The position numbers were made by a program. Below are positions 9,001 through 30,000 of a stretch of 64,000 nucleotides of DNA, in pieces; position 1 is the first letter of the stretch; the number at the start of each line of letters is the position of its first letter. The stretch spans positions 84,444,001-84,508,000 of the forward strand of contig OZ336879.1 of NCBI GenBank assembly GCA_965287045.1. Direction: 5' to 3'. This DNA comes from Carcharhinus amblyrhynchos. Its lineage: Eukaryota.

Positions 9001-12000
9001 GAGGCGGAAATCATAACTGGAAGTTTGGAGCAACTGCGGATGGAAAGCTGGAGAAGATTATGGATGAAATGTTGGATAACATTGGGAATGGAGAATCGTG
9101 GGAGAGGTCAGATCAAGGAGTTAAATTGGAGGAGAGTGGATGGGTGATGTGATCAGATAGCAAGATAGATGCCACCAACAGTTATGGATAGACATTTACT
9201 GAAGGAACTGGAGAAAAAAGCAATCCAACTCCTCCCAGACAACAAGCAGTGCTGGAAAAATATTTATTTATTGGATTTGAATCTGTTGAAGGGTCATCCA
9301 GACTTGAAGTATTGGCTTTATTCTCTCTCCATAGATGCTGAGATTTTCCAGCTTCTTCTGTTTTTGTGTGAGAATGTTGGAGCCAGGTTGTGGTCACAAT
9401 AGAAAAATAATTTATAACTTAATCAATACCATTTCCCCTGCCCACGCACCCGCACCCCCACCTCCCCACACTCACTGCATCCAACCGTAATGGGTAAACC
9501 TTCCCTTAGAAGTTTCATTAAAAAGATACATCATTAAATTTACTCATCTTCTTCTTGAATACTGATTGACTGTTTCAGCAATGACAGTGATTTACTGCAG
9601 CTATTTTAAGAAATATGATAGACCCTGAACTTATGGATGCTTCAGGCTGCCTGAGTGGAAGAAAACCTGCAACTCTATTATACCTTAATGAGATACTCTA
9701 TTTATTTTATCACTGATGGAAGCAGAGAACGCTTTCAAATGAATTCTGGTGCACATTAAATTACCATCTCTGGTTTTTAACCATATCCATCAAACACTAG
9801 TGTTACCAATTTGCACATGTTTTATGTTATTTTTTAAATGTGTATTTGCAGCTACCAGACTGAAAGAAATTTTCACCAGGAAAATTAAAAATTAAATGTT
9901 CCAAAAGCGGGAGTGTCCACACTTCACCTTTCAATAATGTTATTATTTGACATGACCTTTAATATTAGGTAATAAAAACCTTCATTTTTGCAAATATTAC
10001 AAGACTGGTTAATTATTAATAGAATTAATAATAATATCCAAATTGAAAATCACTTGCTTTTGCACTCTACATTGACAGTTGCATTTCAAAATTTTCCTTT
10101 TGTGGCATTGCAGTCTCACAGTGCCAGAGGCCCAGGTGCGATTCCCGGCTTGGGTCACTGTCTGTGTGGAGTGTGCACACTCTCCCCATGTCTCCGTGGG
10201 TTTCCTCTGGGTGCTCCAGTTTCCTCCCACAGTCCAAAAGATGTGCTGGTTTGGTGGATTGACTATGCTAAATTCTCCCTCAGTGTACCCAAACACGCGC
10301 CAGAGTGTGGCGATGAGGGGATTTTCACAGTAACTTCATTGCAGTGTTATATAAGCCTACTTGTGACACTAAAAGTAAACTTTAAACTTTTCTCCTCTTA
10401 ACTCTTTTCAAACCCTTCTTTCTTTGCTCACTTCAGTATGATATCACATCACTACCTACTGAGCCACCAGAAGTATACTCTTTAGTAATTCCACTCTCGA
10501 ATGAAGGAATTATTGATAAAAAATGTAACTGATTCAAGTTTAGTTGAAAGAATGATAGGTTAAACATTGGAACTCAATGAGAATGAATTACACACAAACA
10601 TATCCCCAATCTGAACTGAAATGACCAAATAACATGAAAAATTGAAGTAACACAGAAAAAAAAAGTTATCTGGTTATTTACCTCAGCATAATTAGATAAA
10701 GGAAGGGGGCAACTGTAACAAACAAATATGAAAACAAGGAAGCTACATTTTATAGACATAGGGTGGGATTTTACGGTCTCGCTCGTAAAATCCCGCCTGA
10801 GATCAACAGACTTTTCCATTGTCCGTCCCTTGCCCGCTCCAATTCCCATGGCGGGCAGGATGGTAAACTTCTGGCCAGAGAGTCATACAGTGCAGAAAAG
10901 GCCCTTCGGCCCAGAGAAGTGGGCTGTATGACCTGCAAGCCAACTTATTATTTACATTGTTTTAATGTAATAAGCACCTCACTAATTAAGCACATAATTG
11001 TCTTTTTATTTATGTTATTTCAATGAATATGGACTGGTTGTGGTGTAACCCTGCGGTGCTGAGTCATTCTCATGATGGTAACATGGAACATCGAGGTGGA
11101 AGAAGAACCCGGGACAAAAATAGCCTCTCAGAAATCACACACGGAGGATTTGTCATCAGATTGACCACCGAGATGGACTCCAGCTCGCAAGGAAACGAAG
11201 CAACCGGTCCTGTCTAGTGTATGTACTATTGCCTAATGGTGTAATAAAGGCGGGGCACCTTTGTTGGAACTGCATTGTGTGTCGTTCATACCCAGATGTG
11301 AGAAAGACAGTGAGAGGGTCTTTGCGAAAATTTGGTAAAGTCGGGTGTGAGGTGAGTAGTGTGACCCATGCCCACCTCCACGCTGATTCCCCCTTTACCA
11401 AGGCCTGAAAATGGATGTGATCGGAAACGGCGTGATGGCAATGTAAATGCAGTTGCATGCATTTAAATTGATTTAATGAGCTGCATGCCCAACCTTACTG
11501 GCACTTCCCCCTTTACTACTTTGTTTGCCCATTCAGAATGAGCGCAAAATAGACATGCTCCACAAAAGTCTGATTCGGGCGCTCCAGTTAGAGAGGAGGT
11601 AAGTGTCGAACATCTGTCAGCTCTTTGCTTGAGATCAGTGGGAGGGGAGGAAGGTCCGCTGCCACTCTGCCTGAGATCAGTGAGGGAGAAGGAGCGGTCC
11701 TCTGCCACTCTGCCTGAGATCAATAAGGGGGAAGGGGGTGGGGTCCGCTGCCACTCTGCCTGAGATCAGTGAGGGGGAAGGGAGGGGTCCGTTGCCACTC
11801 TGCCTGAGATCAGTGAGGGAGAAGGAGGGGTCCTCTGCCACACTGCCTGAGATCAGTGAGGGGGAAGGGGGTGGGGTCCGTTGCCACTCTGCCTGAGATC
11901 AGTGAGGGAGAAGGAGGGGTCCTCTGCCACACTGCCTGAGATCAGTGAAAGGGAAGGGGGGGTACGCTGCCACTCTCCCTGAGGTCAGTGAGGGGGAAGG

Positions 12001-27000: not shown

Positions 27001-30000
27001 TCCCCAAGCCCAATGATGAAAGCTAATGCCACTCCCTTGATGGAATACTGTCCATCTGCCTGAGAGCTCCATCAGCACTCAAGAATGTCAACACCATCTG
27101 GGGCAAGGCAGCCATTTTACAAGATGCACAGCAGTCAGTCGACAAGCCATCTTCAACAGCAGCTTCCAAACCGACAACCCTTACCACCTGGAAGGACAAA
27201 GGTCACAGGCCATCATTTGTAATATTCCCTTCAAGGTACACACCGTCCGGACTTGCAATTATATTGCCATTCTTACATTCTTAATTAGTCTCCTGTGTGG
27301 GACCTTGTCAAAAACCTCGCTGAAGCCTCATTCCAAACAGCAATGCTAATTCCGCCATCCCGCTCTCTCATTGCCCAGCACAGGGGCTAACTTAAGCCAA
27401 CTTCCATCCCGTCTAACATTCTCCTCCCACCACCTACTCTTTGGACTCTGTCAGCTCTGACCACTCATCTACTCATCTCCAACCAGAATGTCCATTCCCT
27501 TCTGATCAAGACCCTTGCCATCCATGAACGTATTGTGGATAATTGTATAGACATCACGGCCTTACCAAACACCTACCCGAGGGGTGATAACACCATCCTG
27601 ACTTGCAATTATATTGCCACTCCTTTGCTGTCATTGGCTCAAAATCCTGGGGCTCCCTTCCGAGCAGCACTGTGGTTGTCCCTGCCTCTTGAAATGGTTT
27701 AAGAAGGTCACTCTTCACCGATTTCTGAAGTACAGAAAGGGATGGGAAAGGAATTCTGGCCTTGTCCAGCATTGCTCACGTCCAATGATCAAATTTTTAA
27801 AAACGGCCTGCTGAGATGTTCTCTTCATCTTGGTTCCTTGCAGTGATCCTGTCGATCCTGCCACAGTCCTGCTGTCGGTGATTAACTATCACTTCCACCA
27901 TTTTCCACCCGTTCTGGGTGGGAGGTCAGCCAGTGGGATTTTAACGAGGCTTAATCGTTAAAATCACTTCATGGACTTCACATCGAGTGGGTGAAAAATT
28001 AACCAGGCAGCGTGGTTTCATGCTGGAAACTCAGTGATACTGACATTCCACACCACTGAGTTCATCTTGGTTCAATACTTTGCTTGCAGTTCTTTTTAAT
28101 ATTGTACAACCCTCTCCTCACTGATGTCAGCTTGCTTATTTGATGGAGATGTCATTGCTCAGATTGAAATTGTTATCTTCTCACACATGCTTGCTGGAAG
28201 AGAAGTTGTGGTTGTGTGTTGAAAATTGTCAATCTCCAGCATGTTCATTGTACATTAGTTATAGGCTGTGGGAATTAACTTGTGCCTCTGTGAAAAGGAA
28301 CAGACAGAAACAGTGATTGCATGCCTGGATTGTGCCTTTCTATAAATAAATACATTTTTATGTATTTCAATGCTGCCCTTCAACATTTGGCTTTCTGACA
28401 CGAGCACTAAGTTAAGTTTATTTATTCGTCAGGCTTACGTTAAGACTGCAATGAAGTTACTGTGAAAATCCCCTCGTCACCACACTCTGGCGCCGTCTGT
28501 TCGACTACACTGAGAGAGAATTTAGCATGGCCAATGCACCTATCCAGCACGTCTGTGGGAAGAAACCCACGCAGACACAGGGAGAATGTGCTTCCTTGTT
28601 TTCATACTTGTTTACTAAAATATTAAAGTTATCCCCTTTCTCTATCTGATTATGTTCAGGTAAATAACCAGATGACATCTTTTTTCTGGATTAAACATAG
28701 AACATAGAACACTACAGCACAAACAGGCCCTTCGACCCATGAGTTGCGCCAATCACATCAACACCTACCAATCTATAGACCTATCTATAACCCCCAATCC
28801 CATTAAACCCCATATACTCATCCAGAAGTCTTTTAAAAGACCCCAGCGAGTTCGCCTCCACCACCACTGACGGCAGCCGATTCCATTCACTCACCACCCT
28901 CTGAGTGAAAAACTTACCCCTAACATCACTTCTGTACTTCCCCCCCGCACCTTAAATCTGTGTCCTCTCGTAGCGACCATTTCAACCCGGGGAAATAGCC
29001 TCCGAGAATCCACCCTATCTATTCCTCTCAACATTTTATAAACTTCTATGAGGTCGCCTCTCAACCTTCGTCTCTCCAGGGAAAAGAGACCCAGCTCCCT
29101 CAACCTAACTTCATAAGGCATGCCTCCCAGTCCAGGCAACATCCTTGTAAATCTCCTCTGTACCCTTTCAATAGCTTCTACATCTTTCCTATAGTGAGGC
29201 AACCAGAATTGTTCACACTATTTGGTTATTTCAGTTTGGATTAGGGATATATTTCATCCATAATTCATTCTCATCGAGCTCCAATATTTAACCAATAATT
29301 CTTTCAACTAAGTTTGAGTCAGCATTTTTATATCAATAAATCCTTCATTGCAGAATAGGATTACTGAGGCGTGTAGCACTGGTGGCTCAGTAGCTAGTGA
29401 CGCAATGTCATACTCATACCAGTTGCTTGAATCACTGACAGCCAGAGTCCATCTCGGTGGTCAATCCGATGACAACCCACCTGTGTGCTACTTCCGGGTG
29501 ACTGAACAAAGAACAAAGAGAAAGAAAAGTACAGCACAGGAACAGGCCATTCGGCCCTCCGAGCTTGTACCACTCACGATGCCCTAAATAAACTACAAAC
29601 TCCTGCCTTTACTTGGTCCTTATCCCTCTATTCCCTCCCTATTTCAGATGCCTCTTAAATGTTGCTAATGTGCCTGCTTCCACCACTTGCTTGGCAGAAC
29701 ATTCCAGGCACCAACCACTCCTTGCATGAAAAGCCTCCCCGGCACATCTCCCTTAAGCTTTCCCCCCCCTCACTTTGAACTTGTGCCCCCTTGTAATTGA
29801 CACTCCCACCCTGGGAAAAAGCCTCTGACTATCCACCCAATCTATACCGCTCATAATTTTGCAGACCTCCATCAGGTTTCCCTTCAGCCTCTGTCTTTCT
29901 AGTGAAAACAACCCTAGTTTATTCAACCTTTCCTTGTAGCCAATAACCCCGAGTCTAGGTAACATTCTTTGCACCCTCTCTAAAGCTTCCACATGCTTGG

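What the first reader, a model, noticed from the sequence alone, without database searches (positions are those of the whole stretch)
10433..29415. Old inverted duplication whose arms are a mosaic of ~75%, ~90% and ~99% identity (ongoing arm-to-arm gene conversion?)
Seen: 12911-14017 is the reverse complement of 27272-28356, across a ~13.3-kb spacer. The core (~12911-13600 vs 27655-28356) has only about 6 mismatches in ~690 bp. The collinear outer flank (10433-10745 vs 28590-28695 + 29209-29415) is only ~75% similar, and each arm has private insertions: a 2.1-kb block on the left, a SINE and a CR1 on the right. Short unconverted patches (13615-13650, 13905-13938) sit between high-identity tracts. 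Inference: the duplication is old but parts were recently homogenised, as in palindrome arms. Such arms could also drive recurrent inversion of the spacer downstream of the LHFPL gene.
Basis: partly seen in the sequence, partly recalled or inferred. Interest (0 to 1): 0.65.

Follow-up and report, generated by a model that had tools for sequence, protein, structure and literature searches.

The report
Small inverted repeat patched by recombination repair
Two short, non-coding copies of the same stretch lie head to head about 13 kb apart downstream of an LHFPL gene, and parts of them were re-copied from one another at different times, which is an ordinary and well-known kind of event.

Summary
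12860-14015 is the reverse complement of 28398-27271 (93.1%), across a 13,255-bp spacer. The core 12911-13615 differs at 6 of 705 sites (99.1%). Divergent patches lie at 13616-13648 and 13903-13935. The collinear outer blocks 10435-10749 are 79-81% identical to their partners. Both arms carry private repeat insertions. The clustering of differences is far beyond chance: 0 of 20,000 shuffles reached it.

The arms are non-coding, with no Pfam or Rfam match. They are not one transposon inserted twice. The left-arm homology stops inside a LINE reverse-transcriptase fragment that runs on uninterrupted for about 600 bp. The right arm keeps only an 18-codon stub of it.

The right arm's inner junction carries a 33-bp direct repeat. 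It starts within 3 bp of the edge of the first divergent patch. My reading is at least two repair events between old inverted paralogs. The other was a later 705-bp gene-conversion tract.

The kind is known, including human inverted duplications with a 782-bp near-identical stretch. Genome copy number, other species and spacer orientation could not be tested. Interest is low.

The parts
10435..10749 (+). Left outer old-homology blocks A (10435-10643) and A' (10653-10749)
   Evidence: blastn 79.1% and 79.0% to 29414-29207 and 28688-28585; 247 of 303 ungapped sites identical, K2P 0.22
10750..12859 (+). Left private block of 2110 bp. It contains repeat E (11327-12840, with a 43-bp-unit minisatellite at 11626-12492) and the 87-bp piece Z (11122-11208).
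   Evidence: E matches 41281-40338 on the minus strand at 66-74%. Tandem array of 19.7 copies. Z matches 29503-29418 at 73.6% but out of collinear order.
12860..12910 (+). S1, the low-identity outer end of arm B (partner 28398-28358)
   Evidence: 32 of 41 aligned sites identical plus a 10-bp indel
12911..13615 (+). Left copy of the 99.1% core, read as the most recent conversion tract
   Evidence: 699 of 705 sites identical, K2P 0.0086; differences at 13106, 13212, 13248, 13301, 13415, 13464
13616..13648 (+). S3, divergent patch (partner 27652-27620), read as the unconverted gap between two events
   Evidence: 22 of 33 sites identical; no donor elsewhere in the window
13649..14015 (+). S4-S8, middle-identity inner third of the left arm and source of the copy in the right arm. 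It includes an 8-bp indel (13813-13820) and the unexplained patch S7 (13903-13935).
   Evidence: S4+S6+S8 have 311 of 325 sites identical, K2P 0.045
13962..14617 (+). 5'-truncated LINE reverse-transcriptase fragment that runs through the left arm's inner homology limit (14015)
   Evidence: tblastn with P0081: aa 480-554 at 13962-14186 and aa 557-697 at 14192-14617; also matched by the window's own LINE ORFs
14016..27270 (.). Spacer of 13,255 bp: repeat-rich, with no recognisable gene
   Evidence: 0 Pfam families in 10 of its 21 ORFs of at least 85 aa; LINE fragment at 24559-25737; 1.4-kb element with terminal inverted repeats at 17799-19190
27240..27272 (-). 33-bp direct repeat of arm-internal 27590-27622, sitting exactly at the right arm's inner junction
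   Evidence: 30 of 33 identical, E 4.5e-05 in the window-wide self-comparison; alignment
27271..27619 (-). Right copy of S4-S8, read as a templated insertion. Its last 54 bp (27324-27271) are the stub of the LINE fragment.
   Evidence: tblastn with P0081: aa 480-497 only; homology to the left ends after the motif GTAAGA
27620..27652 (-). Right copy of patch S3
27653..28357 (-). Right copy of the 99.1% core
28358..28398 (-). Right copy of S1
28408..28591 (-). Private fragment of a short interspersed repeat between A' and S1 in the right arm
   Evidence: matches at least 10 other places in the window at 73-83%
28585..28688 (-). Right A'
28694..29206 (-). Private LINE 3' fragment that splits A from A' in the right arm
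   Evidence: tblastn with the window's own LINE ORF: aa 219-362 at 29217-28787; same region matched by P0081. The left arm is contiguous across this site (10643-10653).
29207..29414 (-). Right A
47991..49513 (-). Last two coding exons of an LHFPL-family gene (49334-49513 and 47991-48209). The repeat lies about 18.6 kb downstream of the stop codon.
   Evidence: Pfam PF10242, E 1.5e-10 and 6.3e-07, both above the curated cut-off; each exon was searched on its own

Best explanation
Two old, inverted, non-coding paralogous segments of about 1.2 kb (now about 80% identical where untouched) have served as templates for each other's repair at least twice.

Event 1, of middle age (K2P about 0.045). 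This is inferred. A break occurred in the right copy at the position matching left 13648/13649, and the right copy invaded the left copy. Only about 33 bp of homology were left on the far side of the break, because the shared sequence ends at 13680 on the left. DNA synthesis therefore ran on into the left locus's private DNA, 13681-14015, including the first 54-75 bp of a LINE fragment. It was then sealed back to the right locus at a short microhomology (GTAAGA / GTGAAGA). This left a 317-bp templated insertion bracketed by a 33-bp direct repeat.

Event 2, recent (K2P about 0.009). This is also inferred. An ordinary non-crossover gene-conversion tract homogenised 12911-13615.

The 33-bp patch 13616-13648 is the untouched strip between the two tracts. 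The outer blocks A and A' and S1 were never converted.

Shown directly: the coordinates, the identity classes, the LINE contiguity on the left only, and the 33-bp repeat. Inferred: the breaks, the direction of event 2, and the mechanism. No function is implied. The arms look like neutral, repeat-derived DNA.
For: (1) Three identity classes with sharp limits, and a 705-site stretch with 6 differences that 0 of 20,000 shuffles reach.
(2) The core is flanked on both sides by homologous but about 67-78% identical sequence, S1 and S3. It is therefore not a young element nested in unrelated DNA.
(3) The LINE reverse-transcriptase match is contiguous over aa 480-697 across the left limit of homology. 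The right arm holds only aa 480-497. This fixes the direction left to right for 13649-14015.
(4) A 33-bp direct repeat (30 of 33 identical, E 4.5e-05) lies exactly at the right inner junction. Its arm-internal copy starts at left 13646, within 3 bp of the S3/S4 limit at 13648/13649.
(5) S4, S6 and S8 are compatible with one age (97.5, 92.7 and 95.0%; Fisher S4 vs S6 gives 0.09).
(6) The private LINE fragment cleanly splits A from A' on the right, while the left is contiguous there. The outer homology therefore behaves as one old unit.
(7) There is no sign of selection. The longest stop-free frame lying wholly inside the core is 63 aa. Pfam found no match better than E 0.01, and none above its curated cut-off, in 11 stop-free frames from the arms and the left arm's inner flank. 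Rfam gave 0 matches. CpG is depleted, 9 observed vs 31.9 expected.
(8) The mechanism is established elsewhere. Homologous repair that ends where homology to the second end is lacking is finished by microhomology-mediated joining and template switching (PMC5104497, abstract read). Mammalian conversion tracts are usually a few hundred bp and rarely over 1 kb (PMC3961182, passage).
Against: No outgroup and no second genome are available, so conversion is inferred from pattern alone.

The genome-wide copy number of the arm is unknown; only the 64-kb window could be searched, and it holds 2 copies.

Patch S7 (13903-13935, 12 of 24 identical plus a 9-bp indel) lies inside the supposed single-event tract and is not explained. 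No donor for it exists in the window.

Piece Z is out of order between the arms.

S1's outer edge is abutted within 8-20 bp by a different repeat in each arm. This could instead mean that arm B is a discrete unit unrelated to blocks A and A'.

The segment limits used for the Fisher tests were chosen after seeing the alignment.

The idea that the 33-bp repeat marks one element split by the insertion rests on the repeat itself and on my recollection of a shark LINE family, not on a call. The one search made to test it returned only a spurious hit.
Confidence: 0.6

Rival explanations
1. The arms are two members of a dispersed composite repeat family, for example a LINE 3' end carried with its downstream flank or another multi-copy unit. 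They arrived independently. The identity mosaic then reflects subfamily structure or recent mobility rather than local arm-to-arm conversion.
For: The region is saturated with repeats. Part of the arm (about 13465-13680) resembles, from my recollection only, the 3' end of an abundant shark LINE. Another pair of LINE copies in the window also shows uneven identity: 24571-24680 at 88% vs 24848-25800 at 75% to the copy at 61596-62710. Different repeats abut S1 in the two arms. Copy number in the genome could not be measured.
Against: Only 2 copies exist in 64 kb, while the short interspersed repeat reaches a self-match depth of 13-15. The left limit of homology lies inside a contiguous LINE fragment and is not an element end. 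33-bp divergent patches inside near-identical sequence are not what subfamily structure gives. The arms carry no target-site duplication and no terminal hallmarks. The core has no ORF. A protein search with the 73-aa arm frame found nothing, which is weak evidence because such frames are rarely annotated.
Confidence: 0.17
2. The core is kept near-identical by purifying selection on a duplicated non-coding functional element, such as an enhancer or an RNA gene downstream of the LHFPL gene, and not by conversion.
For: The locus lies 18.6 kb downstream of a conserved gene. High identity is confined to a discrete block.
Against: There is no Rfam match at gathering score in the window, nor at E up to 1 in 10400-14100. 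No tRNA was found. CpG is depleted as in unconstrained methylated DNA. 99% identity over 705 bp beside 67-78% flanks would need ultra-conservation of both copies. Part of the near-identical sequence is decayed repeat DNA.
Confidence: 0.05
3. Assembly or polishing artefact: reads from one arm were used to correct the other, or the second arm is a false inverted duplicate.
For: Near-identical inverted copies are a known failure mode. No reads are available here.
Against: The arms differ by 52 substitutions and 28 gap columns, and the core itself by 6 substitutions. Each arm sits in its own distinct flanks with private insertions. There is no N or gap in the window. The mosaic limits coincide with structural features such as the 33-bp repeat.
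Confidence: 0.05
4. The arms are the long terminal inverted repeats of one large DNA transposon (12860-28398, 15.5 kb), for example a Polinton/Maverick-like element.
For: Two 1.1-kb inverted arms with sharp outer limits enclose 13 kb.
Against: There is no target-site duplication: the bases before 12860 and after 28398 do not match. The outermost 50 bp are the most divergent part. 0 Pfam families were found in 10 of the 21 longest spacer ORFs, and there is no ORF above 191 aa. Collinear old homology continues outside the supposed ends, in A and A'.
Confidence: 0.02

Closest known systems
Human inverted segmental duplications that mediate polymorphic inversions, e.g. HsInv0209 (PMC3961182; passages read)
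   Same: Both are inverted paralogs with uneven identity. In HsInv0209 the arms are 7 kb with 94% average identity and contain a 782-bp stretch of 99.9% identity, named there as the likely breakpoint. Here the arms are 93% identical with a 705-bp stretch at 99.1%.
   Different: The human arms are about five times longer and contain genes (KRTAP5-10 and KRTAP5-11), and the inversion was genotyped. Here the arms are non-coding repeat-derived DNA and no inversion has been observed.
Arm-to-arm gene conversion in sex-chromosome palindromes of primates and mice (PMC3723533, PMC8981503, PMC8327919, 10.1101/800185; search listing with the start of each abstract only)
   Same: Both are inverted repeats around a spacer, with sequence transferred between arms by non-crossover recombination.
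   Different: As far as the abstracts show, palindrome arms are over 10 kb (large palindromes), more than 99% identical along the arm, and gene-bearing. Here the arms are 1.1-1.5 kb and 93% identical overall, the spacer is about ten times the arm length, there are no genes, and there were only two or three discrete events.
Interlocus gene conversion between paralogous segments (PMC4467073, PMC10172114; search listing only)
   Same: Both show unidirectional transfer of short stretches between paralogous loci.
   Different: Those studies detect it from population data and outgroups. Here it is inferred from one pair of sequences.
[quoted passage not shown]
   Same: In both, copying continues past the end of homology with the second break end and is closed at a microhomology, giving a complex breakpoint.
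   Different: That work was shown experimentally with a sister-chromatid reporter in mammalian cells. Here it is an evolutionary footprint between ectopic inverted copies in a cartilaginous fish, inferred and not observed.

Membership tests
Interlocus (non-allelic) gene conversion between paralogs | A tract of significantly raised identity, bounded on both sides by homologous sequence of lower identity | tested here: met
   The core has 699 of 705 identical sites, between S1 (32 of 41) and S3 (22 of 33). 0 of 20,000 shuffles reach the observed stretch.
Interlocus (non-allelic) gene conversion between paralogs | Tract length in the usual range (hundreds of bp, rarely over 1 kb) | tested here: met
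   705 bp; range taken from a passage of PMC3961182
Interlocus (non-allelic) gene conversion between paralogs | Tree incongruence: converted parts cluster by species, unconverted parts by paralog | not testable with these tools
   No eukaryotic genome collection was open; genome contigs holds only bacteria and archaea and was not used.
Palindrome with concerted arms (sex-chromosome type) | Large arms (over 10 kb) with more than 99% identity along the arm | tested here: not met
   Arm B is 1156 columns at 93.1%. Only 705 bp reach 99%. The criteria come from the abstract starts.
Palindrome with concerted arms (sex-chromosome type) | Protein-coding genes in the arms | tested here: not met
   The longest stop-free frame inside arm B is 73 aa. 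No Pfam match above the curated cut-off was found in arm frames.
Inverted-repeat-mediated (NAHR) inversion | Inverted repeats with a sub-kb stretch of very high identity | tested here: met
   705 bp at 99.1%; longest perfect run 195 bp
Inverted-repeat-mediated (NAHR) inversion | Both orientations of the spacer observed among haplotypes or species | not testable with these tools
   Only a single sequence is available.
One transposable element inserted twice independently | Both copies end at the element's own termini, each with its own target-site duplication | tested here: not met
   The left limit of homology lies inside a contiguous LINE fragment. No matching flanks were found.
One transposable element inserted twice independently | Many copies genome-wide | not testable with these tools
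   2 copies in the 64-kb window; the genome was not available.
Large DNA transposon with long terminal inverted repeats (Polinton/Maverick-like) | Target-site duplication outside the repeats, and transposon genes inside | tested here: not met
   Flanks differ. 0 Pfam families in 10 of the 21 spacer ORFs of at least 85 aa.
False inverted duplication (assembly artefact) | Copies essentially identical, next to a gap or contig end | tested here: not met
   80 differing columns; no N in the window. Read-level support was not testable.

The most novel reading that the evidence does not exclude
The 705-bp near-identical core is an active recombination substrate. It still exchanges sequence and at times flips the 13.3-kb spacer downstream of the LHFPL gene, so both orientations segregate in the species.
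Probability: 0.1. Interest if true: 0.4.

Novelty: new member of a known kind. Interest (0 to 1): 0.2.

Why it matters
It matters little in itself. It is a small, non-coding example of non-allelic gene conversion between inverted paralogs, a process well documented in mammals.

It is useful in three ways. First, it is a cautionary example: dating this duplication from its mean identity of 93% would be wrong by a factor of about 25 in either direction, since the parts range from K2P 0.009 to 0.22. Second, its inner junction is a tidy natural footprint of repair that overran its homology. Third, it marks a possible inversion-prone site that population data for this species could check cheaply.

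Tried and rejected
Stop-free frames were sent instead. They gave nothing in the arms or spacer beyond a weak RVT_1 match at 14183-14488 (E 0.27).

I first guessed that the LINE reading frame continues upstream through 13480-13960. tblastn with three full-length LINE proteins (P0081, P0007, P0091) found no match upstream of 13962, even at E up to 10, so I dropped the idea.

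A protein search with the 73-aa arm frame 13493-13711 found no candidate. This is uninformative about copy number.

I tested whether the right inner flank (26990-27272) is LINE-derived. phmmer of the frame 27064-27219 against 1.84 billion representatives gave 1 hit, P0121. P0121 is an internally repetitive EGF/VWA protein matched weakly many times over, at 28-38% identity. I judge the hit spurious, so this point stays a recollection.

Donors for the divergent patches S3 and S7 elsewhere in the window: only chance 11-13-mers were found beyond the arms' own sequence.

Further collinear homology beyond the arms: a word-7 blastn of 9000-16500 against 25000-31000 found none, apart from the out-of-order piece Z and interspersed repeats.

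Rfam gave 0 matches and the tRNA search gave 0.

The giant-transposon and artefact readings were rejected, as set out under rival explanations.

Structure prediction, complex prediction, search_dna_similar and the search for related loci were not used; none of them bears on this question.

Full report
**1. Observation**

The window has no N. The repeat finder reports inverted arms 12903-13725 / 27543-28365, 823 nt and 97% complementary, plus collinear continuations. Gapped blastn joins them into one alignment, 12860-14015 vs 28398-27271, 93.08% over 1156 columns. I call this arm B. The spacer 14016-27270 is 13,255 bp.

Further out there are two collinear blocks. A is 10435-10643 vs 29414-29207, 79.1% identical. 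A' is 10653-10749 vs 28688-28585, 79.0% identical.

**2. The mosaic**

A global alignment and counts per segment give the following.

| Segment | Left coordinates | Identity |
|---|---|---|
| S1 | 12860-12910 | 32 of 41 sites, plus a 10-bp indel |
| Core | 12911-13615 | 699 of 705 (6 substitutions, 5 of them transitions, no indel) |
| S3 | 13616-13648 | 22 of 33 |
| S4 | 13649-12812→13812 | 159 of 163 |
| S5 (indel) | 13813-13820 | 8-bp indel |
| S6 | 13821-13902 | 76 of 82 |
| S7 | 13903-13935 | 12 of 24, plus a 9-bp indel |
| S8 | 13936-14015 | 76 of 80 |

(S4 runs from 13649 to 13812.)

Kimura distances are 0.0086 for the core, 0.045 for S4+S6+S8 and 0.22 for A+A', a ratio of roughly 1 : 5 : 25.

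- The longest stretch with at most 6 differences is 705 sites.
- In 20,000 shuffles the maximum was 465 within arm B and 312 for A+A'+B, so 0 of 20,000 reached the observed value.
- Fisher tests separate the core from the middle class (4e-4) and the middle class from A+A' (1e-8).
- The segment limits were set after looking at the alignment, so these tests are descriptive.

In the whole window only one other pair exceeds 88% identity over more than 300 bp. It is a pair of young LINE copies, 95.7% over 1090 bp. Ordinary interspersed copies are 66-77% alike.

**3. What the arms are made of**

- No stop-free frame wholly inside arm B exceeds 73 aa.
- Pfam finds no match better than E 0.01, and none above its curated cut-off, in the arm frames tried.
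- Rfam finds nothing at gathering score in the window, nor at E up to 1 in 10400-14100.
- No tRNA-like gene was found.
- The core is CpG-depleted, 9 observed vs 31.9 expected.

The window's longest LINE ORF (31014-32123) matched 4867 longer proteins at E up to 1e-10, among 8000 candidates scored. The 120 listed carry reverse-transcriptase domains, and some also carry endonuclease domains.

I used three named hits in tblastn: P0081 (Mobula birostris) and P0007 and P0091 (Mycteria americana). A 5'-truncated LINE fragment starts at 13962 on the plus strand and runs in register to 14617 (P0081 aa 480-697). It passes straight through the end of arm homology at 14015. The right arm has only aa 480-497, at 27324-27271. 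Nothing upstream of 13962 matches these proteins, even at E up to 10.

**4. Private insertions**

- In the right arm, the 3' part of a LINE (about 28694-29206; aa 219-362 of the window's own LINE ORF) splits A from A'. The left arm is contiguous at that site.
- In the right arm, a fragment of a ~290-bp interspersed repeat (28408-28591) lies between A' and S1. It matches at least 10 other places in the window.
- In the left arm, 10750-12859 holds repeat E (11327-12840). E has a second copy at 41281-40338, 66-74% identical. E carries a 43-bp-unit minisatellite that has expanded to 19.7 units.
- The left block also holds an 87-bp piece, Z (11122-11208). Its partner, 29503-29418, lies outside A on the right, so Z is out of collinear order.

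**5. The inner junction and the direction of transfer**

Read in arm orientation, the right arm follows the left up to the motif GTAAGA inside the LINE stub. It then continues with 33 bp (27272-27240) that repeat an arm-internal stretch, 27622-27590, which equals left 13646-13678. The repeat is 30 of 33 identical, with E 4.5e-05 in the window-wide self-comparison (alignment). After that comes unrelated sequence.

The arm-internal copy of this repeat begins within 3 bp of the S3/S4 limit. On the left, the sequence shared with the right inner flank stops at 13680.

Three facts fit one event:
- The LINE is contiguous only on the left.
- A 317-bp stretch on the right is bracketed by a 33-bp direct repeat.
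- S4-S8 have a uniform middle age.

In that event a break in the right copy was repaired from the left copy. Only about 33 bp of homology lay beyond the break, so synthesis overran into left-private DNA. It was then closed at a microhomology or by a template switch. This way of ending homologous repair is described experimentally in PMC5104497 (abstract read).

The core is then a later, ordinary conversion tract. Its length fits the usual range quoted in PMC3961182 (passage). S3 is the strip neither event touched. S7 is not explained.

**6. A lead from recollection only**

To my memory, 13465-13680 and 26990-27272 resemble the 3' end of an abundant shark LINE read on the opposite strand. If so, the right arm would hold a longer piece of it than the left. 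That would make each arm the more complete one for a different part. It would also allow the old duplication to have been carried by a LINE together with its downstream flank.

The one test I could make failed. Of 1.84 billion representatives, 1 was hit, and I judge that hit spurious. Nothing in the verdict depends on this lead.

**7. Rivals**

- **Independent insertion of one transposon.** This does not fit the homology limit inside a contiguous LINE fragment, the lack of target-site duplications or the 33-bp patches. Genome copy number, however, is untested.
- **A 15.5-kb transposon with long terminal repeats.** This fails on target-site duplication, on gene content (0 Pfam families in 10 of the 21 spacer ORFs of at least 85 aa), and because old homology continues outside its supposed ends.
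- **Selection on a functional element.** Nothing found here supports it.
- **An assembly artefact.** This is unlikely given 80 differing columns and distinct flanks, but it cannot be excluded without reads.

**8. Context**

The last two coding exons of an LHFPL-family gene lie on the minus strand at 49334-49513 and 47991-48209 (PF10242, E 1.5e-10 and 6.3e-07). I located them with short recalled motifs. The exons were searched one by one, and the joined (spliced) model was not built or searched.

**9. Comparison with what is known**

The closest published case I saw is human HsInv0209. It has inverted duplications of 7 kb at 94% average identity with a 782-bp stretch at 99.9%, named as the likely inversion breakpoint (PMC3961182, passage). 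That paper's supplementary tables of repeat sizes were not seen.

Sex-chromosome palindromes share the mechanism but not the scale (search listings only). The finding is a new instance of a known kind.

**10. What stayed unchecked**

- Copy number of the arms in the source genome.
- Orthologous loci in other species.
- Read support.
- Spacer orientation among haplotypes.
- Repeat-library names for the repeats.

No contig that I would take for human was met.

**11. Verdict**

Confidence in the two-event repair reading is 0.6. Interest is 0.2.

Noticed in passing
window 27240-27272 and 27590-27622: A 33-bp direct repeat (30 of 33 identical) brackets the 317-bp stretch that the right arm copied from the left. 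There is a microhomology at the joint. It looks like a natural footprint of homologous repair that ended by end joining.
   Followed up: yes
window 13903-13935 / 27374-27351: A 33-bp patch at only 12 of 24 identical sites, with a 9-bp indel, lies inside an otherwise 93-97% identical stretch. There is no donor in the window, and it is unexplained.
   Followed up: partly
window 11122-11208 and 29418-29503: An 87-bp piece (73.6% identical) is shared by the two arm regions but sits in a different order relative to blocks A and A'.
   Followed up: partly
window 11327-12840 and 40338-41281: Two copies of a repeat, 66-74% identical. Its internal 43-bp-unit minisatellite has grown to 19.7 units (867 bp) in the left-arm copy but is far shorter in the other copy.
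   Followed up: partly
window 17799-19190: A 1.4-kb element with about 170-190-bp terminal inverted repeats (139 nt at 86% and 21 nt at 95% complementary). It is probably a non-autonomous DNA transposon. No clear target-site duplication is seen.
   Followed up: partly
window 30914-32001 and 38639-39728: Two direct copies of a young LINE, 95.7% identical over 1090 bp, with open reading frames of 370 and 328 aa. The family may have been active recently.
   Followed up: no
window 24571-25800 vs 61596-62710, and 24716-24819 vs 60176-60279: A second case of uneven identity between inverted LINE copies: 88% over the first 110 bp and 75% over the rest. In addition, a 104-bp piece is 90% identical to a third place.
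   Followed up: no
window 5365-8090: Two partial copies of a retroelement lie head to head (7367-8090 vs 6069-5365, 74.6%), with frames of 152-259 aa. From recollection of its motifs it looks Penelope-like. Pfam found no family for two of the frames.
   Followed up: partly
window 44796-45455: A minisatellite of 27-bp units, 25 copies, 77% matches. It lies between the repeat region and the LHFPL exons.
   Followed up: no
window 47991-48209 and 49334-49513 (minus strand): The last two coding exons of an LHFPL-family gene (PF10242). By recollection of the C-terminal motif it resembles LHFPL6.
   Followed up: partly
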